A stretch of DNA of 64,000 nt from Squalus acanthias (taxonomy: Eukaryota), in the NCBI GenBank assembly GCA_030390025.1, contig CM059444.1, forward strand, positions 44,640,001-44,704,000. Reading direction: 5' to 3'. Numbering within the stretch: the stretch's first letter is position 1; each line of letters starts with the position of its first letter. Of the stretch, positions 7,226 through 48,975 are shown piece by piece. The notes beneath the pieces are model-generated. The model had not been told where the DNA came from, made no database searches, and saw only the letters and a program-made list of their open reading frames with translations. The position numbers and the translations under genes are program-made.

Positions 7226-10200
7226 ATCCCCATCATCCTCAAAACAAGAAAATAACCCATCAGTGTCTCAAACCCATTTGTGACTACTGGGAACGAAAAA
7301 TGCTTAACCCTGAAACCTCTTGTCATTACTAACTCCTATGTTCATATTGACAAAGAGTCAAAACTTATGGAGACAATCAAACTGAAGGGCTGTACCAAAA
7401 CTTTAACATACAAGCTATAAACAATGGCACTTCAGTGAAATAATTTAAAGTCCTGAGATTTCCTAAAGTTCTATTAATGAAAGTTAATCTGTGTCAAAAT
7501 TGACACCTCTTAGATATTGCTGCATCTTCTGAAGGCCACCCCTGTGATGATAATATAAGTGTATTAGCGGCCCCCACACAAATAAGAACAGTAATATTCA
7601 ACCTTGGTTCATAGAATATAAGTTTATTTTCATGTCACATCAGCCAACATAGACTATAACAAACTTGTAAGGATATATTCTATTTCAACTTTCTCAGTTT
7701 AAGATCTGAACGTCTTGGACAGTACTTGCATCAGGTCCTCATAGTGTATGCAAATATATCTATATCTACCTATATATTATATATTATATATATATCCCCT
7801 CTAGGAATGGGGTCAAATTATTTTACTGTGCATTCAGGGACTGTTTTATGTGCGAGAGTCCTTGAAGGACACATCCAACACACTGAGCACTGGGCTCTGT
7901 CTCCGCATGGATTTCTGTGAATCTCATCAAGTCTTTCTCGGCTATACTGGGCTCCTCAGTCTGAACAATGGACACTTCCTCCACCTAGGACTCTTGACAC
8001 TGAGTGAAATAAGAATTCTGGATGGATAAGACTGAATGTTCTGCTAGATTATGTGTAATTTGAATGTCATAATTGCAAGAACTTTGTGAGAAATTATGCA
8101 AAAACAGTGGATTATGGACTACAAATAGTTATATATTTGAAAGGGCTTGCATGTATATTGGTACAGTACAGCTAATGTAATGCTTGATACTAGTAGCTGA
8201 GTCTGTAGTACTTGAAATAACAGAAAAACACAATTTTCTTCAGAAACGTGAGGCAGAGGCGATCTCAGGCATGTGCTCATGCATATATGGATTGTAGCTT
8301 TTTTGTTAATTTTTTTCCCCCCTTGGGATGGACACTGTCACATCAGCATTTTTGATAGCTCCACGATCTTCCAACTTCTTTTGAAACTTTTATTTTTGTG
8401 GCAATAACATTCTAACCCTGTTTGACCCTCAGTAACCTGCATTTCAGTTTTAGTGTCTATTGATGCAATTTGTAACATTTTGAAAAGTTTCACCAAAAAA
8501 CATAAGACAATACGGGAAAAATTGGGTTTCTGTCACAGCCTAGTGGATGTGGTTTTTATATGTCCTATTTGTGCAGTGAGGAAAGAAGTCATTGCATAAA
8601 CAGGTGACTTTTTCTGGGATTTTAATAAGGCTGTCACTGTCATTAATTGTAGTTGAACTCTGGTTGTGTTGCTTGTTTTTCCGCTGACAGAAATGGTTCA
8701 CTTTTTGTATTGTCATGGTGAATATTTAAGTGCAGAAATCTGGGTGGAAATTTTCTTTCAAAACCAATGGGGATAATTTTCCAGTAGTCCTTTTCTGCTT
8801 CCAAAAATCCCTTGCACAGGACTGAATAATCAAAAGAAATCTGCCAGACTTCTGGGGAAGCTGCTACATTTAAAAATCGCATATACCATCGTGATGTGAA
8901 ACATGAGATTTTCAAATAGGAGAAATTATTATATACTGTTGTTTAAAAATCATTGAGACTCGGTTGCAGATGGTTTGGTCAGAACTTGTCCAAAAAGGCA
9001 CTTATTTTTAAAGCTAGTTAAATGCATACACCTTCAGTGTCACATTTTCTCCACTTAATACTGGTGCTACATTTCAGAGAACTACTAAATCAAATGTTCC
9101 TGAAGGCTATTATGACAGACTGAATCACTCTGAATGGCATGCTGGAGCAAACTGCTTCCAACAACAGGTGACTCACCTGGATTCTGCCTGGAGGCCTGTT
9201 GGCTCAGGCTCCATTGTAGCACTGACACCATCCACCAGTAGTCTTTGGGCTGCTGCTGGCTCCCATTTTCATAGTATAATTCCTGTAGCGAGGCGCTTAC
9301 TTTTGAACAGTTGATCCTTTTTTTTTGTGGAATTCTGGAAACCAATTAAGACTATTAAAGAAGGAGCTGAACAGTGCATGTGATGCAGAGGAAAATTCTT
9401 TAAGTTACAAATGCTCATTCTTTCTTCATTGCCCACAGTAGACACGCTTCTTCTTGAAGTATCTTGAGAGCAGAAGATGATTAGTTCCAGTTCCACCTCT
9501 TCAAAGGTGTTACTGCACATTTTTTTTCCTGGTGTACTATTGCAGCCCACTGCCCTTGCGTATTCAGTGCATTTGCCCAAACGGCCTTCAAAGAAAGGTG
9601 TAGATGTTATTCACTGCAGGAGAACCTGACTAATTGCCATTAGTTTAGTGCACACAAACTTGGCTACTTAGTACAGCTGGACTCCCTCTGTTGTATACAG
9701 CACCTACCTCAACAGAACATTACAATGAAAATGGCCAGCTACAACCATATTTGACAAGTCAGTAGCACCTCAACTTCAGGAGAGAATTCATGGTAAGCCA
9801 AGCATATTGCAGGAAAGTACAATTGTTTAGCGGATTCAAGAGCAACGGTTCATCTACACAAGTGTGCCCTCCACTGGGTGTTTATATGCAAAAACCTCAG
9901 GATGTGAGGCTACCCAAATCTGAGACAAGGTTTGAGGAGAATGTGAAAGTGAAGGATTTAGCCCTGGCATTGTCCCCAGTCCCAGAATTCTATTTTGGGA
10001 TTGTTGGTCCTTCAATTGAAAATGGATTTATATTGTATGCATTCCCCTCTTCTCTGTAATTTCATTTTAGTTCTCCTGAAGCAACATGTTTCAGTCATTC
10101 TTCCACCTCTAACTAGACCTGCTGTGGTAGAATAGATGTTGAATGAGAGCCATTTGAAAGCCAGGGCCAGTTAGACGAGGTAATTAAGATCATCATGATT

Positions 10201-11336: not shown

Positions 11337-13061
11337 TAAGTTCTTATCCAACATGGCCTGTCAATTGCACCTTCCCGGGCCAGTCAATAATATCTACCTC
11401 ACTTCTCACAGGAAAAAGGGGGGTGGGGGGAGGAGGTAGGGTCTATAATACTTTATGTACATCATGTTTTGGTTTATCCAAGTAAGTCTGACCCATTCTC
11501 CGCCTTTTTTCACAACTGAATCCTTAGATGCTCATTTTCCAAACTTTGGCTAGCCAACTAGATAGTGGAATATATATTGGATAAGAACTTGGCAGGTAAT
11601 GCTGCTCCTTTGTGTAGTATAACAACATGTTGCTTGACAATGGTCACTTAATGGATTAGATTCATATCATTCTACCTTGGGAATCACTGTAAAGCTACCA
11701 TGTTGAACAACAGTTACCAAGAATATCTGCCTCCAGTGATTTGGGGCTTTGCAGGATAGCCTCTTGTGAGTGATGGTTCCTCAGCCTGGTTTGAATTGCC
11801 CATTCTGTTTCTCCTGCCTTGTAAGGAGAGGGGTGCAATCCCAGATTCGGCTACTTTATTTCATGTGAAAAGTAGAAAGCTGCAGGAGGAAGGTAGTTAA
11901 AATGTGTAAAATTGAGTGTAATTGAGATAGAGAAGATTAGGAAATTAATGATAAATACACCAGCCTTTGATGCCATGGTAATATGATATAAGAGGCAATG
12001 TTAAGTATACTTCCTCTTTTAAGACTCATTTATTCAGCAAATGCAATTTAATAATTGTTCCAAATTTATAGCTATTTAAAAAAAAAATACAAAATTGGTG
12101 TGACACTTACTTTCTCCACTTTTAATTTGGTGTAGACACTCCTACCTCCTGAGGCAAATTTTTAAAAGATGATAAGAGTGCAAGTTTCCTTTTAGCATTG
12201 CAACAAATTAATTTTGGCTTGAATTCTGCAGCGTTTAACCTTTCTTCAGTGCAGTAGTTTGCAAACTTTGCTGTGTAGGGCACCTGATGAAAATATTGAC
12301 TCACTCCTAAGGATCCCTATCTTGAATCCAAAAATCAGTATCAGGAAAACAGTGTCATCTTTGCAGAAGACACTTTTTTATTTGTGTGTGTGTATATAGC
12401 AGCAGAAACAAAATGCTAGTAAGTCAACAAATAGAAAAACTACAGAACTCTCGAAACACTGCTTGTGATATGTGTTATGGCTGGTCCCATGGAGACAGAA
12501 ATCTGATGACTTCACAGACTCTCTTAGATCCCCTAGGGTCATGGATCCCAGTTTATAAACCGAGGGTCTAATGTTACCTATAAATTCGAACTCCTTTCCA
12601 TGTTATTTTATACCACTTATAAATCTTCTATGACTTTTGACCTTGACACTTCTTTGATAAATCCTTTGTTTAAGCAGGAATAAATGAGTTGCTTCGATAT
12701 TGGTCCTTAGCTGAGCTGATTCTCATGGGGTGATGCTTTGTGGTAATAGTTGTTGAGGGAAGAGAGCAAGGTAAGTTCCTTGTAGTTCTCTGTTAGTTTG
12801 ACTTGGGTAACCAAAGCAGACAGATCAAGGGAGACAAATTTCAGTTAACATTCATTCTCGGCACACAAGGAAATCTGCAGAACCTTTTTTTTTAAAAAAA
12901 AACTCCTAGAAATTTGAAAATGCACGAAGTACACGGAAGGTCCATCAGCCAATGACCTAAAAGGCTTCAAAGTAGCATTGAATGAATTGCTTGAACTGAA
13001 TCTGACTTGTACACTCAAAAGTAACATTGCAAGCCTACTCAAATACATGTCCAAATTTAAA

Positions 13062-13153
13062 ATAAGAACACAAAATATTGGAAACATTCAGCAGGTCAGG
13101 CAGCACCTATGGAGAGAGAAACAGAGTTAACGTTTCAGGTTGATGATCTTTGA
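13062..13153 (-). mobile_element. Penelope-like family B fragment with 12-bp TSD; hammerhead core lost
   Basis: TCCAAATTTAAA at 13050-13061 and 13154-13165. Matches the cagcaggtcaggcagca...gttaacgtttcaggt family. Confidence 0.8.
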
Positions 13154-13288: not shown

Positions 13289-14340
13289 TGCAGTTGAGCA
13301 GAAAATAGAATTAAATTATTAAGAATGAGCTTTTTGCGGCAATCCTCAGTATCCATCCTCCAGAGGTATCAGTGGCATCACACTGTTCATGCCCACCATC
13401 TAGATAGAGTAGAAGGTGATGATATAGCCGCAGATAATCAAGACATGCCTGTGAAGGACCAATTTCATGACGATATTTTCTTTCCCGTCATGCACACTGT
13501 TATAAGTTATTTCTCTATCCCAGAGGCCAGGGATGCTCAGTCGTTGAGTATATGCAACACTGAGATCGATAGATTTTTGGACTCTAAGGGAATCAAGCGA
13601 TATGGAGATTGGGCGGGAAAGTGGAGTTGAGGTCAAAGATCAGCCATGATCTTATTGAACGGTGGAGCAGGCTCAAGAGGCCGTATAGCCTACTCCTGCT
13701 CCTATTTCTTATGTTCTTAAAAGAACTTTGATGTACTCACGTGTATCTGCCAAAGGTTTGAATTTCTGTGTACATTTCCTGAAAGCATAAAGGTTGATCA
13801 CAAAAGATTTTCTCAATTTTTATTCCACTGGTATTTCTGGTGACATAAAAGAAAAATGAAGAGTTCTTACAACACATTTACAAAGAAAACATTGACCACA
13901 AAATACAATTGCTGCTTCATTTACTAAATAAGCTGCATGAAACCTTTCTTCAGAACCTCTTCCCCAAGCTGATTGTTGCACTTTGCATATGTTGCTGCGG
14001 ACCAGCCTCTGTAGTCAGCGCAGAAAGATCGTTTAATGCTCAAGCGTGTGAAGAACTGCAACGATGCACCTTTGGGTCAGTCAAGACTTAATGGCTTAGC
14101 AACTCTTGCCATTGAAAATGATCTAACGAGAGTGCATGACAGGAAAGAAAATATCGTCATGAAATTGGTCCTTCACAGGCATGTCTTGATTATCTGTGGC
14201 TATATCATCACCTTCTACTCTATCTAGATGGTGGGCATGAACAGTGTGATGCCACTGATACCTCTGGAGGGTGGATACCAAGGATTGCTGCAAAAAGCTC
14301 TCATTCTTAATAATTTAATTCCATTTTCTGCTCAACTGCA
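13289..14340. repeat. About 207-bp inverted repeat (13289-13495 versus 14132-14340)
   Basis: The arms are near-perfect reverse complements. The ORF track shows VHD.KENIVMKLVLHRHVLIICGYIITFYSI on both strands. Confidence 0.95.
13510..13718 (+). mobile_element. CR1 LINE 3' end inside the hAT fossil
   Basis: Reverse-complement match to 3819-3980; ends ctcctatttcttatgttctt. Confidence 0.88.
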
Positions 14341-24785: not shown

Positions 24786-24928
24786 AACGAAAGAGTTCTG
24801 ACGAAAGGTCATCGACCTGAAAAGTTAACTCTGTTTCTCTCTTCACAGATGCTGCCTGACCTGCTGAGTATCTCCAGCATTTTCTGTTTTTATTTCAGAT
24901 TTCCAGCATCTGCAGTATTTTCTTTTTG
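24786..24928 (+). mobile_element. Penelope-like family B insertion with 14-bp TSD
   Basis: TAGTTTGGTGCACA at 24772-24785 and 24929-24942. Confidence 0.82.
24792..24832 (+). ncRNA. Minimal hammerhead motif (6-bp stem I, stem-III palindrome mutated)
   Basis: AGAGUU CUGACGA A AGGUC-AUC-GACCU GAAA AG UU AACUCU; the family consensus is GAAACGUU. Confidence 0.7.
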
Positions 24929-25033
24929 TAGTTTGGTGCACATACTGATCCAGCAACTCTCTGTATAAACACCAGGAGATGCCACTCAGCCTGGGTCATT
25001 TCAACAGGACTTTGTTACCCATTTTAAAAAGGC

Positions 25034-25406
25034 TCCAAAATAAAAACGGAAAATGCTGGAAATACTCAGCAGGTCAGGCAGCATCTGTGGAGATGGAAAC
25101 AAAGTTAACGTTTCAGGTCGATGACCTTTCATCAGAACTGGAAAAAGTTAGAGCTGTAACCGGTTTTAAGCAAATACAAAGGAAGGGGGAGGGGAGGAAA
25201 TAACAAAAGGGAAGGTCTGTGATAGGGTGGAAGGCAGGAGAGATTAAATGACAAAAGGGATGATCGTGCACGGCAAAAGAGGGTGGTAATGGGACAAGTA
25301 AAGAAACAAAAGATGGGTCTAGAGGAGGTGTAAATGGCAATAGCAGAATCATTACCAACATCTGCTGTCCGAAAAAATGGGATGATCTTAAGTATTTTGC
25401 TTTTTG
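25034..25406 (-). mobile_element. Longer Penelope-like family B insertion with 12-bp TSD
   Basis: TTTTAAAAAGGC at 25022-25033 and 25407-25418. A short inverted terminal piece agtattttgcttttt lies at the right end. Confidence 0.8.
25103..25139 (-). ncRNA. Minimal hammerhead ribozyme motif, intact
   Basis: Minus strand: AGUU CUGAUGA A AGGUC-AUC-GACCU GAAA CG UU AACU. Confidence 0.78.
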
Positions 25407-26907: not shown

Positions 26908-26983
26908 ATGCTACTTAAGAAAATGGACCTGTTGAACTATCCGTACAAGATGAGCAACAATATTGGCATCCTTTGCTTTGAAG
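26908..26983 (+). CDS. VGLL4: VGLL4 first coding exon (MLLKKMDLLNYPYKMSNNIGILCFE-G)
   Basis: ATG at 26908 directly after an in-frame TAA. Translation matches the recalled vertebrate VGLL4 N-terminus (MLFMKMDLLNYQYLDKMNNNIGILCYEG). Phase-1 donor AAG|GTAAAA at 26984. Confidence 0.93.
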
Positions 26984-29900
26984 GTAAAACTCCAGCTTGT
27001 TTCAGTTTTTTTTCTCTCGCAGTTCTTGAATACAGTGTGTTAAATACTTTTTAAAGTTTCTGATTGCAGAATGTTACTTTGTTTCCCCCCCCCCCCCTCG
27101 CCCTTTTCAGGATCTAAAATATTTTGGTCTGTTGGTTTTAACATTGTGTATCAATTTTTTTTAATTAACTGGCTGATCATTTTTGCTTCATGTTTCTTTG
27201 TCTGTGGAAAAGCCGTGCCCAATGTCTGCCTAAGGCTCTCAGAGATTGCAGCCGCGCTAACAAAGAAAACTTGCTGGCTGTCTGAGGAGCCATGTTGTAC
27301 TTGCACAGTCTGACTCTTTGTTTAGCTTATCATTTCCTGTGTAGTTCTGAGAAAGTTCTGACAGTGAGGGATGTGCCTCTCCTCTCAAATGCTGCAAGAG
27401 ATCATTGTTGAGCCAAAGAGAAAACACTTTTTTTGCTCAGGTTAATTGTAGCTTCATTGTTTTGTGTTTGGTTTAAAAGATTTTGCACACAGTATTTTTG
27501 CATTACTCTTGAGAGTTCAGTAATGATCAAAGATAACCCACAGTGTAGCTATTGGGCTGCTTGTATTCTTAAAACAGCATCTACGTGCTGTTTAAAGGAG
27601 TGGTAATGGCTTGATTTTGGATTCTAAAGCATTAGTGATTTAAAGCTAACAAGTATTGCATAAACCACATTTGGTACAGTACTATCCATGCTTCTGTTAC
27701 TAAACCAATTCAAGCTGCATATTTTTGAACTTCATTCATTAAAAATGTAAAGCAGAGTTAATTGCTAGAACTTGCCTCTGCACTTGACCTGTACATTCAG
27801 ATAATGTTGCAAATCCTTAAAAAGCCAGCTCCTTGCGTTTTGCATACTAGCTTGATCAGCTTCAAGCTTTTAAAGCTGAATCTTAATTAATTACTACTGT
27901 AACAGCCTAAACACAAGTAAAAGTTTAAGATGAGCAGGCAACAAAGGAAAGCAGCATTTCTGTTTTAAATGATTAACTTACAAGCAGCACTGGTGGGGGG
28001 TGGGGGGAAGTGACAGGAAGCTTGATTTCTTCCTTGGGTGCATTTTACCATTTAACTTCCCATTCAAGTACTGTAGTTTTCTGTGGGTGAAGTCAGGCAC
28101 CTAGTGGAGACAAAGGATTGATATCGTTCTAAAGTTTTTTTTCCTGTTTTTTGTTTTGTTTTACCAGCTTTGAATTTCACTTCATTTTTTTTCAAAAAGA
28201 TGCTATGGAAGATTTTGGGATTTTCCACAAAGAAAAAAAATATATACCCATAGTTCTTTGCAAGTGTTACTACAACCATTTTAAAAACATGGAAAAATAC
28301 AAGGTAAAGCGGTACTGTAAATCAGTCTTGCTTGTTCTTCCATCAGAATTCCTTCATTACCAATAAAGTTAGAAAAGTTGTCTGTCAAAATATTATGAGT
28401 GAGATTCGACATAAAATGGAAGTTATCAGTGAAGTTCGGTGCAACCTATTCTGGTGGTTATGAGTTTTTCCTTTGTTATAATTGACAGTTCCATTCTGGT
28501 TTTTACAGAATTTAGGTATGCACTAAATTAGTGGAACATCAGTTGACCACATCTGTTTTCCAGTTTTCAGCATCTTGGGGGAAACTAATTCTGTTTGAAA
28601 TCATTAAGAGTTTTAATGCAGCCCACTGATGTCAAACAAAATGCAGTTTGGCAAACTTGCTGTTGTAAACTGCTGGGAACACTTGGCTGCATGTTTGAAT
28701 AATAATCTAAGACCAAAGTACACTTTTAACGGGGGGAATCGGGTTATTCATATGGATTAAGGTATTTATAATGTACGGATTTTATTCTTTTTATGAAGTT
28801 TCAGAATATGTGTTTCCATTTTTTCCCCTCACTTTACTAATTGCTTCTGTGTTAGCAGCTGTTGTGACCTGGAAGCAATCCTGTTCAGCAAACAGTAATT
28901 CAGTAATACTAATGGCAATGCCAGAGGTCACTTTGGTTTGGTCCACATATAATTGGCATAAAGAATCTTACATGTGTTGGCTTCTTCCTGCTCCCCATCT
29001 TAACAGAAAAATCTGATTATATGCTGGTAATTTCTATGCATAGCATTTAGAATTTTAATTGTGTTTTTGGACACTATGTTTAAATATATATAAAAAATAC
29101 ATTTATTTTCAAAATGGGAAAAAAAATTACTTTATCAATCAGCTACATCCATTGCAGCTCCCAAGTCCCTTCATCGTAAACCACGTTTTGTATGTAGTTT
29201 GCTCCTTATGAAAATTGTGATCATGTCGGCTTCACATAGTTTCCCCGTATCTTGTTTTAATTTATTTTGAATGCATTTATTCTGTTATCTATGAAATTGT
29301 TATTTCAATTGGAAGCCTGTAGAGGTACAATGATGAAATATAATTCTCAAATTAATATACATTGTCATTTATTGAAATACTTTGTGCTATTAGATGTACA
29401 AATTCAAACAGATTCTTAGGGCAATATTTTGTATATAACTAGCATGGAATTCTGCTCTTTGTCTGTAGTTCCTGGGCCTCTGGTTGGCAGGAGAAAGGAC
29501 AGATAAACGATTACAATGTTCAGACACTACAAATGTTTTGTGCTTACAATGGCCATTTGGAGTTTTTACTATTGAACTTTAAAAACAAAATGGAAAATTG
29601 ATTTAAATTAAGCAGATTTATGTTCATTTTGATTTAATAATCGGAGATGGGTGAGACCCAGAAAAAGAATCATAGTTTCTGTGGATTTTGATTGCCTGTG
29701 TCTGTTTTAACTCTGGTGTCTAGGCTTCAGTGTGAGCTGTGCACCGAGAATGCAGGCATTCAAAAGCCCATTACAAAAGCTGAGCCAGCAGCACTGGGGT
29801 GAAAAGGCTATGTAGCAGAACCGTTCTGTACCAGCTGCCTACTCTTGTGCACCGTGTCAAATGACAGGCACTTGATACTTAGTGAATTTTGAGCTTCAAC

Positions 29901-31239: not shown

Positions 31240-31465
31240 CTATATCTGGCCAATATTTATCTCTCAACCAACACCTAAAACAGATTATCTGGTCATTTAT
31301 TTCATTGCTGTTTGTGGGAGCTTGCTGTGCACAATTTGACTCGCACGTTTCCGACATTACAACAGTGACTACACTTCAAAAGTACTTCATTGGCTGTAAA
31401 GCATTTTGGGGTGTCCTGAGGCTGTGAAAGGCGCTATATAAATGCAAGTCTTTTCTTTTTTCTTT
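31240..31465 (+). mobile_element. Deu-domain SINE, 3' half
   Basis: ctggccaatatttatc...cattgctgtttgtgggagcttgc...aaggcgctatataaatgcaagtc. Confidence 0.85.
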
Positions 31466-31494
31466 GTGTTTTAAAAATTCCAAATTTTCTGATA

Positions 31495-31734
31495 CAAAAG
31501 CAAAATACTGCGGATGCTGGAAATCTGAAATAACTGCAGAAAATGCTGGACATATTCAGCAGGTCAGGCAGCATCTGTGGAGAGAGAAACAGAGTTAACG
31601 TTTCAGGTCAATGACCTTTCGTCAGAACGTTCTGACACAAGGTCATTGACCTGAAACATTAACACTCTTTCTCCACAGATGCTGTCTGACCTGCTGAGTA
31701 TGTCCAGCATTTTTTGTGTTTATTCCAGATTTTC
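31495..31734. mobile_element. Palindromic pair of Penelope-like family B units
   Basis: Axis gtcagaac|gttctgac at 31628/31629; arms of about 105 bp are reverse complements. Confidence 0.85.
31594..31628 (-). ncRNA. Minimal hammerhead ribozyme motif, intact, antisense to VGLL4
   Basis: Minus strand: GUU CUGACGA A AGGUC-AUU-GACCU GAAA CG UU AAC. Confidence 0.75.
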
Positions 31735-34700
31735 TTATCAATACATTTTTTATGCAACTGCATGTTGTAAGCCATATATCTGTTTACTTTCTTGTTGGAT
31801 GCTATCGTAAACACATTTTTTCTTTCTGTTTACTGCATATCATTTTGGCGGGAAACAAAATCCACTTAAGCCTGAGGGATCCTGTCCTGTAAAACCTGAT
31901 CTGCAACTTTATGCAAACTGACTTGACAGCTTTATGTTCACTGCATCATCTCCCTGCAAAGGGATAAAAGGAGAGGTCATTTTCGGTGCTATCGGCAGTG
32001 ATCTGAGCTGTGTTTTTCATTTTGCCACAAAGCTGGAACAGCTTTAAATGGAGTAGACACAGGCAGGGCAGAAAGGGAAAGACTGGTAGTGGAAACAACA
32101 GTGTGCTTTGTTAAACTACAACTGAAATTAAGACTTCAAAATTACTCATGCATATGCATGAGCCTCTAGAATTTCCATCTGTTTTGCATGAAAACAATTC
32201 CTCATTATATTTTGATTTGAGACCAAATGCAGATATTATACTGTTCTTTGGTAGCTAAGCACAGTTTAAGTAGGGTTTCTCAGCTAACAACTGGTTGAGA
32301 ATGTGATTAAATCCAAGTTCAGGCGCCGTGTTTCTATAATTGTGGCAAGAAAACTGAAGTAGCCAGATGGTCACTCTTAACCCTAAAATTGACCAGCAAA
32401 AAATAAAGGTCATGATGAAAACAATATCTAGCCGAACTGTGCGTATGTGTGTGTCCAAAACATCAGCCATCCTTGATTTTTTGCCATTTGTATATAATCC
32501 TTGCATTTTGAAGCAAATTACCCCAAACTGTAGATAGTCATTTCTAGTTATTTTGAAGATTTCAGATTTATTTTTTAGTTTAAAACTGTAACTCAAACCT
32601 TCAACAAAGGCATCTTGCATCCGCTTCTGAATATACAGAAAATCTCGCTGAGCTATATTTTGCAATATAATGTGTACCTAAACATAAGCCAATTCTGGCG
32701 GACTGTAGTATTGGCTCCAATAGTTAATAAAATAACCATCATTTATATGTCAATAAATTTTTTATGGGTTTTCTATTTTTAAAATAATTGTACCCAGAGA
32801 CAGTGTTACTCTGTTCCTTTTTTATGTGGCAATATGACTGGTGGAGTGGTTCCCACGCAGGAAAATGGGTCAGGATATAGAACTTAGCAGCTGCAGATAT
32901 AAATAGTTCTGAGCCGAATTAGTCCACAAATTCTATGTACACGTTCAATTAAAATGTTGTACAATTTCTCATTGCGGTATAGAGTGAGTCTTGCGCATAC
33001 ATTGCTTCTGTACAGATCCCTGGATATACTCCTCCTAGGACATCTGGTGTGCATTGCAGCTATATTTTTCCATTGCTTGCTGCGGTATCTTTGAAGGCTA
33101 TCGCAGTAACTGTGGTCTGCCCAGATTAAATCATATGGAACTGACTGAGAATGCTGACAGCCCCTTTTTTCCCCTTCTTTCCTTTTCCTGCTGAACACAG
33201 CCAAATTATTGGCTGCAGCTGAGGATGTGCAAATCTGCAGTGCTTATTAAAATAGGATTTGGGGAAAAACACACTATTTTACACGTTACAATGATTTATA
33301 ATGTGGCAGTGGAAGAAGCAACGTGGTCAGAAAATATGTGTTGCAGTAGACTTAAAAATGCTTTGCGTTCAGGAACACTTTGCTTTGTATGGCGACAATT
33401 GAGGGTTAACTCGCACTGAACCAAGAATTTAACAAATGAAATAATTGCTGAAGTAGATACCTTGTACATGTGTGTTTTGATTTGTTAGCACTGTCGATCT
33501 GCTAATGTAGGGGTGCCAACCTGTAGCCCTAGTGCCACATGTGCCAATCGCACTGTTGATGTCCAATTTGCAATGATATTTCTATTTGCTTGTTTTAATT
33601 TCCAAGGCTGGAGTGTTTGGAAAAAGCTGCTTTTTTATTTGCTATTAGCTATTTTGCTTCATTAGTTGGATAAATCATCAATCAGAACACTTTTGATTTC
33701 TTGGTGTCCACAGCTTGAGATGTATGATAATTAATGGGGACATGGATTTAAGCTGTATAAGTAGCCTTTGAGGCTCAATGATGCACAATTATGCAGCGCA
33801 AGAAGACAAGGTTTGGGCAGCTCTTGTGCTTATATATCGAATGTTGAAAAGGCAAAATCTGCTGGTTCTCATTTTGTATGACGCACTGCCTTAATTTTTA
33901 CTCCTTTTTGTGTCTTAACCAATTTTTACTTCTCATTTTGAGGTAATCTAATCATAACTCTCGCGAACATTTTATTTCATGTGATTTAATGGGAGTCTAC
34001 CACTGTAACCTGATCATAACATCGCCGATTTATTTCTGAAGTTTCAGCAAGTCCTATTTTACGTTGATTTAATGCTTCGATGGGCCCTATCTGGCACATT
34101 TTTATTTTTGTAGCTTTTTCACATCTGCTGGCGGTGGGGGGGGGTGGGGGGGAAAGAACTTCCTTCCTGGGGAGCATAAGTAATTTGGCAAACATCAGGT
34201 TAAAATTCCATGGGGAGGGGGGTTGGGGGGGTGGAAATTCTATACATAGCTGCTCAGCTGGGCAAGAGAATACATGTAAATGGTTTTTTGCTGCCTCAAG
34301 TGAATAAGCAGTCAGGAAGGTGAAATTGGAAATGGATCAAAATGTTGCCTGGTAATGAGGCTGATGACTTGTAAAAAGTCACATGAATATCCTGCATGTG
34401 GAATGTGTAGTATCTGGTTCTAGGAGACAAAAACTAAATCAAATGTATTCAAACTGCTGTTGCAGCTTTTTTTTTTAAAGTCTAGCTTTATCGGAGGGTT
34501 TCTTGCCAAAATTATGATGTCATTTTGGTTGCCATGGTGTGTGGTTAGACTGGAGGAGACAACCCAGCCAGCAAAATAGGACATTTGTTTGGTGAACTGC
34601 GCTGTGGTTTCCCTTCACTGACTGAATGCAATGGGGAAAACTACCAACAATAAATCTCTTGAATTTTCAGCTCGTCGTCCTTTTTTTTCTGTTGTTTTTC

Positions 34701-35203: not shown

Positions 35204-35390
35204 GTGAAGCTGCACTAAGGAGTGACGGTAGGATGCAGTCAATCCCAGTGTCCTCCGCACTCGCCAACCATCGCACAGGACCTCCACCCATTAGCCCCAA
35301 CAAGAGGAAGTTCAGTGGGGACCAGGGAGATGATGATGTGGAAAGTGAGAATGAACATGCCTCCAAAGCAAGCAGGTTATATGTTCAAGT
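35204..35390 (+). CDS. VGLL4: VGLL4 coding exon 2 (EAALRSDGRMQSIPVSSALANHRTGPPPISPNKRKFSGDQGDDDVESENEHASKASRLYVQ)
   Basis: Acceptor ccacag| and donor |gtaagt. 187 nt, phase 1 to phase 2, in frame with its neighbours. HRTGPPPISP-KRKFS motif typical of VGLL4. Confidence 0.95.
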
Positions 35391-47352: not shown

Positions 47353-48756
47353 TATATTTTGTTAAGTATAATACACCTGTATATTAAGGGATACCTCTTT
47401 TCAATAATGAAGAGCTGTATCACATCTAGCCGTCTCTCAATGATTATCCCTCTGATGTGAGGGTTCAACCCAGTTGTGTTTCTTTGTGTCACCTCTAGAG
47501 CCTCGATGTGTCATTGTGTCATGGCAGCTGAAACTATGCATTATATTCTGTATGTCACCTAACTTATGTGGCTTTGAACCCCTTAACTATTTAAATATGT
47601 TGAGTGAGGTGCTAACTAGATCTTTAGATCAAATTCATTTTCCACTTGGCAAGTTCTATACACCCAGAGAGTATATGTGCCTAGTATTTTGACTTCCAGT
47701 TTGTATTACCTTGTGCAATTGCATATTGAACTTAATTTGTTACTGATCAACCCAGGTGCCTATGCTATTCAGATCTTGGTAAGATCTTGGCTGCTTCTTC
47801 AGAGTCCAAGGTCCCTTCAAGCTTGGCATTATCTGCAAATTTAACTGCCTTGCACTGAGACTGTGAATTCAGGTCATTTATGTACAGTAGGCACAGATAT
47901 GTTGCAGCATGACAAATTTATTTTTAAAAAGCAGCTGTAAAAGACTAAAATCTGATTTACATTATCAGTTCATGCCAAGGTGAATCTAGCGTGGATTCAA
48001 TGCTGCTGCAAAATTGGTGGTGTAAAGAAGAACAGATTGTACCCTCTCTGAGTGAAAAGTGCCACAGAAATAGACTTCTATATATGTGGTTGGTAGTGAT
48101 GAATTAAATGGGCTCTTGAGTATAATTCAAACTTTCAGCCAAAATTGAAAGATTTGAACAGAAATTATTTACGCAAGTGTGTATCTGACACATGGAATTC
48201 GAGCACTCTGCTCAATGGCTTGCTCACAATGTTCTAATGTTTAGCATACTAGAAACGTCTGAAGTAAAGGGCCGTAACTTCACAAATTACATCCTGAAGT
48301 CAACTTTCACCAACGGCTGGGGAAAAACCCTCTTACCCTTCCCTAAGTGTGGTGACTATGCTGTGGTTCTGTTCCAGGGTTTGCTGGCAGTTTTTTTTTG
48401 TTGTTCAGGTGAAGTACTTTTCTTCACATGAGCCCTGACAGTGATGGTGGGCTATTTTACCAAGGAGGACAAAACTGACCAGCCTTAATCTTGTCATCTG
48501 AAGATCCAAACGTTTGCATCTTTGACAACAGGTCACAAGAATGCAGTCGGGAGCAGGAACCCTGACTGACTTTCCCATCCATCGGCCACAGACATTAAGG
48601 CCAAGTAAAACGCTGCACTGTTACACTGGCTGCAGTTGGCACAGACCATAACTTGAAGCTGGGATCTTGCTTGTCTTTATGGTGGAATATCACATCATGC
48701 AAGGCATTTACTCCCTGATCCATTGGGGAATTCCTGGAGGGAGCAGAGAGGTAAAC

Positions 48757-48975
48757 CTGAAATAAAAACAGAAAATGCTGGAAACACTCAGCAGGTCAGG
48801 CAGCATCTGTAGAGAGAGAAACAGAGTTAACGTTTCAGGTCGATGACCTTTCATCAGAATGACCTGAAGCGTTAACTCTGTTTCTCTCTCCACAGATGCT
48901 GCCTGACCTACTGAATATTTCCAGCATTTTCTGTTTTTATTTCAGATTTCCAGCATCCACAGTTGTTTTTTTTTT
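48757..48975. mobile_element. Inverted pair of Penelope-like family B units
   Basis: 48757-48845 is the reverse complement of 48861-48945. The minus unit keeps CUGAUGA..GAAA; the plus unit starts after the core. Confidence 0.85.
48826..48859 (-). ncRNA. Hammerhead core intact, stem I shortened by the inversion junction
   Basis: Minus strand: UU CUGAUGA A AGGUC-AUC-GACCU GAAA CG UU AAC. Confidence 0.6.

What the first reader, a model, noticed from the sequence alone, without database searches (positions are those of the whole stretch)
31495..31734. Spacer-less palindrome with back-to-back hammerheads in VGLL4 intron 1; sense copy broken
Seen: axis GTCAGAAC|GTTCTGAC with arms of about 105 bp. 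The minus-strand ribozyme is intact, while the plus-strand one reads CUGACAC for CUGACGA and GAAACAUU for GAAACGUU. Both arms share private variants (AUU loop, tgtccagc/gctggaca), so one arm was probably copied from the other. Known: PLEs produce inverted pseudo-LTR arrangements. Inference: fold-back synthesis at insertion; the pre-mRNA would carry a long hairpin.
Basis: partly seen in the sequence, partly recalled or inferred. Interest (0 to 1): 0.7.

Follow-up and report, generated by a model that had tools for sequence, protein, structure and literature searches.

The report
Back-to-back Penelope retrotransposon leader copies
This mirror-image stretch in a shark VGLL4 intron is an ordinary old insertion of a very common jumping gene, two back-to-back copies of its ribozyme-bearing end, likely made when both cut DNA strands copied the same RNA rather than by a strand folding back.

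Summary
The palindrome is real. It is a 231-bp insertion between 14-bp target-site duplications in VGLL4 intron 1. It holds two head-to-head copies of the leader of a Neptune-type Penelope-like retrotransposon, a family of roughly 200,000 copies here. One arm carries the known ~35-nt PLE tail (1-136); the other stops at 97. The same zero-spacer axis recurs at 14 other matches, and 227 more junctions have asymmetric centres.

The minus-strand hammerhead core is intact but minimal, and is predicted to be buried in the hairpin. The sense copy is broken mostly by CpG decay, which is common (19 of 41 copies broken). The arms share two derived bases but are 12% diverged.

Fold-back is not favoured. 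All 65 TSD-bounded pairs have exactly one tailed arm, and the tail-less arm stops where solo copies stop. It often reaches further 5' (22/28, 15/24, 8/25), and two insertions have arms that share no sequence. Best model: both target strands prime reverse transcription at the two known start sites, probably on one RNA, and the cDNA ends join. Here both ran to the RNA's 5' end. The layout is published, and this scan reported such palindromes before on other DNA of this genome.

The parts
31477..31490 (+). Left target-site duplication, 14 bp (13 of 14 identical to the right copy)
31493..31628 (-). Tail-bearing arm: element leader positions 1-136, subfamily B, 6 differences from the subfamily majority over positions 1-98
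31493..31531 (-). Unpaired extension, positions 98-136, containing the PLE 'tail' between the two family end sites (~100 and ~135)
   Evidence: tail described in PMC11167929 and PMC8557442
31594..31628 (-). Minimal type I hammerhead motif with intact core, 3-bp helix I and loopless self-complementary helix III; predicted buried in the hairpin
   Evidence: no Rfam hammerhead hit
31628..31629 (.). Zero-spacer axis; both arms begin at element position G1, a family-wide hot spot of 5' ends
31629..31721 (+). Tail-less arm: positions 1-97 with a 4-nt deletion and 10 substitutions from the subfamily majority; sense to VGLL4
31629..31663 (+). Broken hammerhead motif (G9A and G30A at CpG sites, A10C)
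31722..31735 (+). Right target-site duplication; this junction is also in contigs of a second study of this organism and of three other organisms
26908..26983 (+). VGLL4 alternative first coding exon (host context; donor GT at 26984)
   Evidence: identification rests on recalled short peptide motifs and on its in-frame join to exon 2
35204..35385 (+). VGLL4 next coding exon (Pfam PF15245 positions 19-77; end given is the end of the Pfam match)

Best explanation
This is a 231-bp head-to-head insertion of two short copies of the leader of a Penelope-like retrotransposon, flanked by a 14-bp target-site duplication, and it likely arose when both nicked target strands primed reverse transcription on the element's RNA and the two cDNA ends were joined. 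Inferred steps: (1) the GIY-YIG endonuclease nicks both strands ~14 nt apart; (2) one 3' end primes at ~135 (tail end), the other at ~97-100, the two start sites shown in vitro for the anole PLE; (3) both copy the same source sequence, probably one RNA molecule, the rear enzyme displacing the front cDNA; (4) here both ran to the RNA's 5' end (positions 0-2, likely the start site), so the ends met with no spacer; (5) each cDNA then templates the other's second strand. The insertion has decayed since, apparently neutrally. On either strand the hairpin is predicted to stop the hammerhead from folding, so no cleavage is expected.
For: SHOWN. (1) TSD and tail/no-tail anatomy at this locus. (2) A full-length parent with RT and C-terminal GIY-YIG frames and a CX4CX2C linker lies in L146; the leader precedes the ORF's ATG by ~170 nt. 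(3) All 65 true pairs with an exact TSD of 10 bp or more (66 rows, one spurious row dropped) have exactly one arm ending at 126-150 (mode 134-135) and the other at 104 or less (mode 99-100); TSD length is 14-15 bp in 39 of 66 rows. (4) Copies without an inverted partner end at the same two sites: 28 of 44 at 97-108 and 14 of 44 at 127-136. (5) The tail-less arm reaches further 5' in 22 of 28 loci, in 15 of 24 after two duplicate rows are dropped, and in 8 of 25 long pairs. (6) L047 and L240 are TSD-bounded, with a tail-only inverted arm that shares nothing with the other arm. (7) 45 of 45 pairs have both arms from one subfamily, with 49 shared derived bases against 9.7 expected. (8) Of 16,954 copies with the exact 22-nt core, 3,260 lose the element match within positions -1 to 1; 64 of 70 fetched cases do not extend beyond -9, and I saw no common upstream exon by eye. 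(9) G precedes A0 in 484 of 1,052 (46%) against 30-38% background, a weak cap-like hint. LITERATURE. PMC11167929 reports that PAc nicks and extends both strands, starts at two sites bounding the tail, and is predicted to be a dimer.
Against: No intermediate or biochemical test was seen; the mechanism is read from end products. This locus is symmetric, so it does not itself tell the models apart. 14 of 25 long pairs have the tailed arm reaching further, and 7 of 24 non-leader long pairs are symmetric within 30 nt; both classes also fit fold-back. Later deletion at a palindrome's centre could change which arm reaches further. The pattern-selected sets are biased in where arms start, though not in which arm has the tail. 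The start-site reading lacks direct RNA-end data. One RNA against two RNAs from one source locus is not resolved.
Confidence: 0.68

Rival explanations
1. Fold-back or self-priming (first reader; self-priming is also proposed in PMC3846280): one tail-primed cDNA folds on itself, copies back as a second arm and is joined to the other target end.
For: It explains shared variants and symmetric axes at arbitrary internal points (L150: 1-nt centre; L283: 9 nt; L287: 5 nt). It fits the 14 of 25 long pairs where the tailed arm reaches further.
Against: It cannot make pairs where the tail-less arm reaches further 5' (22/28, 15/24, 8/25) or arms with no shared sequence (L047, L240) without extra deletions. 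It gives no reason for the second arm to stop at the ~100 site where solo copies stop. L293 has a hairpin-like joint, but the loop lies on the tail-less arm. A zero-base loop is sterically implausible (general knowledge).
Confidence: 0.14
2. Dual priming on two separate RNA molecules from the same source locus, held by a protein dimer, with the cDNA ends joined by microhomology or bluntly.
For: It explains one tail per pair, either arm reaching further, and symmetric joints at the RNA's 5' end such as this one. A dimer is predicted for PAc.
Against: It needs both RNAs to come from one source every time: 45 of 45 pairs are from one subfamily and share minor variants. It does not readily explain 7 of 24 long pairs symmetric within 30 nt at internal points, nor tail-only arms that stop at 101-110, next to the other start site.
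Confidence: 0.12
3. The palindrome is a mobile unit of its own (MITE-like), or its arms were made alike after insertion by gene conversion.
For: The same axis recurs at 14 matches. Some long pairs are 99% alike (L150, L295). One decayed palindrome was multiplied inside another repeat.
Against: Copies with this axis differ in subfamily and in where the tail-less arm ends (22-107), and each has its own TSD. Centres vary among the 227 other junctions. The arms here are 12% diverged, which argues against ongoing conversion.
Confidence: 0.03
4. The hairpin has been kept for a role in VGLL4 pre-mRNA (editing, small RNA, splicing), and the sense ribozyme was disabled by selection.
For: A ~90-bp duplex is predicted on the sense strand. 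The right junction is shared by four organisms. All three core changes fall on the sense arm.
Against: Two of the three changes are CpG transitions, and 19 of 41 sampled copies have a broken core. Private substitutions, 8 against 4, are not significantly skewed (p = 0.39). The hairpin itself would already block the ribozyme. The flanks differ by only a few percent between these organisms, so neutral retention suffices, and such hairpins number in the thousands genome-wide.
Confidence: 0.03

Closest known systems
EN+ Penelope-like element insertions with an inverted 5'-truncated copy and one-sided tail (PMC8557442 fig. 2, passages; Pen2a_Av in PMC3846280, passages)
   Same: Head-to-head inverted pLTR copies, a 30-40-bp tail on one end only, a TSD around the whole unit, and palindromes at the inverted joint.
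   Different: Both arms are only the ~100-136-nt leader, with no ORF; the TSD is 14 bp (9-10 bp in the Adineta examples); the joint has no spacer. PMC3846280 proposes self-priming on an antisense template, which the arm geometry here does not favour.
PAc, Poseidon-type PLE of Anolis carolinensis (PMC11167929, parts 1-2 of 4 read)
   Same: Hammerhead near the ORF start, two internal RT start sites bounding the tail, both target strands cleaved and extended, and priming without target homology (mean junction ambiguity here ~1.2 nt).
   Different: The shark parent has a CX4CX2C linker, so it is Neptune/Nematis-type, not Poseidon. Its ATG lies ~170 nt downstream of the ribozyme start, not inside it. 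The parts read do not link two-strand extension to inverted genomic copies.
Minimal type I hammerheads of metazoan PLEs (PMC4209133, parts 1-2 of 4 read)
   Same: Conserved core, extra base before helix II, self-complementary bases in place of helix III, mostly dispersed truncated copies, some pairs on opposite strands.
   Different: Helix I is cut to 3 bp by the axis, and the mirror arm is predicted to sequester the motif. No dimer partner lies on the same strand.
L1 twin priming (recalled, not read here)
   Same: Both target ends prime cDNA on the element RNA, giving an inverted segment inside a TSD.
   Different: L1 twin priming yields non-overlapping inverted segments. Here the arms usually duplicate the same segment, and the two start sites are fixed.
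Non-LTR retrozymes (10.64898/2026.07.22.740005, part 1 of 5 and passages)
   Same: Short non-coding PLE-related units with a type I hammerhead.
   Different: Retrozymes are head-to-tail tandem arrays. This is a head-to-head pair made at insertion.

Membership tests
EN+ Penelope-like element (insertion product) | [quoted passage not shown] | tested here: met
   L146 frame hits RVT_1 (E 2e-5) and GIY-YIG (E 1e-3), both below Pfam's curated cut-offs; L079 GIY-YIG E 1.6e-4. The frames end ~300 nt upstream of the same leader sequence.
EN+ Penelope-like element (insertion product) | Pseudo-LTR: the same segment at both ends of a full-length copy | tested here: met
   L146 4917-5218 = 8133-8433 at 95%.
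EN+ Penelope-like element (insertion product) | 30-40-bp tail on one end only | tested here: met
   Arm ends at 136 and 97 here; 65 of 65 pairs.
EN+ Penelope-like element (insertion product) | Target-site duplication | tested here: met
   14 bp, 1 mismatch. An empty site was not found; three other organisms also hold the right junction.
Neptune/Nematis clade of PLEs | CX2-5CxxC linker before the GIY-YIG domain | tested here: met
   CKRRRCNTC in L146 and L079; criterion from PMC8557442.
Neptune/Nematis clade of PLEs | RT phylogeny with reference elements | not testable with these tools
   No reference PLE proteins were available; no PDB relative was found.
Minimal type I hammerhead ribozyme | Conserved core and helix II | tested here: met
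   Minus arm only; helix II pair probability 0.81-0.99 in the isolated arm. The plus arm has three core changes. Rfam found no hammerhead.
Minimal type I hammerhead ribozyme | Folding of helices I and II in its RNA context | tested here: not met
   Pair probabilities 0.0 in the palindrome; helix I about 0.02 even in the isolated arm. Prediction only.
Minimal type I hammerhead ribozyme | Self-cleavage | not testable with these tools
   Needs an assay.
Non-LTR retrozyme | Head-to-tail tandem units, each with a hammerhead | tested here: not met
   Head-to-head pair with one motif per strand.
MITE / palindromic mobile unit | Uniform ends and centre across copies | tested here: not met
   Centres and arm ends vary, and arms are unequal.

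The most novel reading that the evidence does not exclude
The shark genome records how PLE inverted insertions are made: both target strands prime on one RNA at the two start sites that bound the tail, the rear RT displaces the front cDNA, and the two cDNAs template each other. This would explain the one-sided tail, the head-to-head layout, symmetric axes at any position and zero-spacer leader palindromes like this one with a single mechanism, testable with the existing PAc assay.
Probability: 0.5. Interest if true: 0.5.

Novelty: new member of a known kind. Interest (0 to 1): 0.27.

Why it matters
The locus itself matters little: it is one old, decayed copy among thousands of head-to-head insertions. 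The family-level counts bear on an open question. PMC8557442 calls the origin of PLE tandem and inverted structures 'still undefined', and PMC3846280 proposed self-priming. The strict one-tail rule and the arm geometry point instead to priming from both target strands, linking the in vitro two-site result (PMC11167929) to genomic products. I did not find that link stated in searches (titles and abstract starts only), but the library lacks most subscription papers and I read only part of each paper. Such insertions also seed long intronic RNA duplexes across shark genomes.

Tried and rejected
Rfam found no family at gathering score in the window. At E <= 10 it gave only hairpin look-alikes such as mir-3202 at 40 bits against a 90-bit cut-off, rejected as generic hairpin matches.

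Splice-acceptor idea: long copies read as a 3' splice site just before position 2, but 70 fetched copies ending at 0-2 showed no common upstream exon by eye. RNA-type contigs laid on the parent's 5' region showed no GT..AG joint among the listed joints (contigs show neither starts nor absence).

Expression, editing and small RNAs at the locus: no RNA holder was listed on record, so this was not testable.

Empty site: not found. The other organisms' contigs already hold the right junction, and none listed spans the axis.

Primer-RNA homology: this target resembles element positions 98-108 at 10 of 11 bases. Across 57 and 65 junctions the mean ambiguity is only ~1.2 nt. The permutation control (~0.5) counts only one side of the junction, so I do not take this as enrichment.

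PDB: no relative of the RT-EN frame. No earlier scan note lies near this locus.

Rows dropped before counts: L014 (same flanks as L009); L125 (inside the flanking region); L102 and L114 (partner arm not resolved); L274 (= L273) and L225 (= L096); L294 and L296 (direct), L297 (two separate insertions), L142 and L136 (complex); the second L255 row; 14 copies nested in another repeat. L254 is doubtful but was kept.

Full report
OBSERVATION. The axis is between 31628 and 31629 with no spacer. I number the element from the G at the axis (G1). The left arm is positions 136 to 1 on the minus strand (31493-31628). The right arm is positions 1-97 with a 4-nt deletion (31629-31721). A 14-bp direct repeat with one mismatch flanks the unit (31477-31490 and 31722-31735), giving a 231-bp insertion. 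The apparent 105-bp arm includes the right duplication, which resembles element positions 98-108. The + strand folds at -160.2 kcal/mol (z -19) and the - strand at -149.8. VGLL4 is on the + strand; first exons lie at 26908 and 33 kb upstream, and the next exon starts at 35204, so the site is in intron 1. An assembly artefact is unlikely, because the arms differ at 11 of 94 sites. A contig from another study matches 31688-32300 without a difference, and three other organisms hold the same right junction. No listed contig spans the axis.

WHAT THE ARMS ARE. The arm sequence is a very common repeat: 70 hits in 117 stretches of 10 kb taken at round positions, about 60 per Mb or roughly 220,000 genome-wide. 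Long copies run upstream into a GIY-YIG frame. L146 holds a full-length copy with direct terminal repeats, RT and GIY-YIG hits below Pfam's cut-offs and a CX4CX2C linker, the mark of the Neptune/Nematis clades (PMC8557442 passages). After position 136 the parent continues to an ATG at about +172, so the arms are the element's leader.

THE RIBOZYMES. The motif fits the minimal type I hammerheads of metazoan PLEs, which are thought to need a dimer and cleave weakly (PMC4209133). The minus-strand core is intact. Its helix II forms in the isolated arm (probability 0.81-0.99), helix I hardly does (0.02), and neither forms inside the palindrome (0.0). The plus-strand core has G9A, A10C and G30A; two are CpG transitions. 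Cores are broken in 19 of 41 sampled copies, and the 8-against-4 skew in private substitutions is not significant. No selection is needed.

SHARED VARIANTS. The arms share C19T (6 of 148 other copies) and T78G (1 of 167); none of 138 copies has both. A common template is therefore likely. In overall identity the arms are unremarkable: 42 of 61 subfamily-B copies are closer to the left arm than its partner is. Sharing is the family rule: 45 of 45 pairs are from one subfamily, with 49 shared derived bases against 9.7 expected, many of them minor-subfamily markers. This shows a common source, not fold-back.

HOW COMMON. The exact zero-spacer 32-mer occurs 14 times (two share flanks). One narrow pattern finds 227 head-to-head joints with asymmetric centres. 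The window holds a second one at 48753-48974. This scan's notes list many similar palindromes in this genome.

WHY THE AXIS SITS AT G1. Of 16,954 copies with the exact 22-nt core, 902, 1,306 and 1,052 lose the element match at positions 1, 0 and -1. Of 70 fetched, 64 do not extend beyond -9, so about 17% of these copies end in a 3-nt window. No common upstream exon was seen by eye, which argues against a splice junction. G precedes A0 in 46% against 30-38% background, a weak hint of a copied cap. I infer the RNA's 5' end lies at 0-2; two earlier scan notes suggested this leader reading, and RNA contigs could not test it. A zero-spacer axis then follows when both cDNAs run off the same end.

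MECHANISM. PMC11167929 shows that a purified PLE protein nicks and extends both target strands and starts at two internal sites bounding the tail. In this genome all 65 TSD-bounded pairs have one arm ending at 126-150 and one at 104 or less, with TSDs mostly 14-15 bp. Unpartnered copies end at the same two sites, so both are priming sites. A fold-back copy cannot contain what its template lacks. Yet the tail-less arm reaches further 5' in 22 of 28, 15 of 24 and 8 of 25 pairs in three sets, and L047 and L240 have a tail-only inverted arm with no overlap. Against this, 14 of 25 long pairs have the tailed arm further, and 7 of 24 are symmetric within 30 nt at internal points; both classes fit fold-back, and later central deletions could blur the geometry. 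One RNA copied twice covers all classes: shared variants, either order, symmetric stops at a shared RNA end, and tail-only arms that stop near the second start site. Two RNAs cover fewer. These steps are inferred, not shown.

COMPARISON AND NOVELTY. The inverted truncated copy, one-sided tail and TSD are described (PMC8557442; PMC3846280, which proposes self-priming). I saw parts 1-2 of 4 of PMC4209133 and PMC11167929, keyword passages of PMC8557442 and PMC3846280, and part 1 of 5 plus passages of the retrozyme preprint; L1 twin priming is recalled. Searches listed no paper whose title or abstract start describes shark PLE palindromes or dual priming as their cause; subscription papers are missing from the library.

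VERDICT. This is an ordinary member of a known kind whose relatives give a useful mechanistic hint. Interest 0.27.

Noticed in passing
window 48753-48974: Second head-to-head copy: tail-less arm 2-108 and tailed arm ~19-133, a geometry that single fold-back cannot give; no TSD found.
   Followed up: partly
window 24795-24930, 25038-25400, 13053-13151: Solo copies of the same family, with TSDs; the 25038 copy extends ~260 nt upstream into the element's 3' UTR.
   Followed up: partly
L048:9271-9415, L056:2079-2220, L168:1842-1979, L197:4672-4815 and three sites flanking the window: A decayed palindrome (arms ~20-96 and ~53-119) sits inside another repeat with shared flanks and was multiplied as its passenger.
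   Followed up: no
L002 (both arms), L013, L250: Family copies cut near positions 22-32 by, or adjoining, a G+C-rich insert with a similar 12-nt start; in L002 both arms are cut. Possibly a DNA-transposon end (recalled, untested).
   Followed up: no
L150, L283, L285, L287, L293, L279, L165: Long-armed pairs symmetric within 1-30 nt at arbitrary internal positions, which suggests the two cDNAs stop in a coupled way.
   Followed up: partly
window 31277-31460: A very high-copy SINE-like repeat directly left of the insertion (depth); the name HER1 is recalled, not tested.
   Followed up: no
window 13289-13498 and 14129-14340: Inverted repeats of ~210 bp, 96-98% complementary, 630 bp apart, MITE-like.
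   Followed up: no
L146:5236-5256: In the full-length parent a pyrimidine-rich stretch and AG lie just before the ATG, possibly a 5'-UTR intron acceptor as in other PLEs; no spliced joint was listed.
   Followed up: partly
G000:C3:67400798-67400848: A palindrome in which both arms begin with an extra G before A0, with one base between them (listing); not fetched.
   Followed up: no
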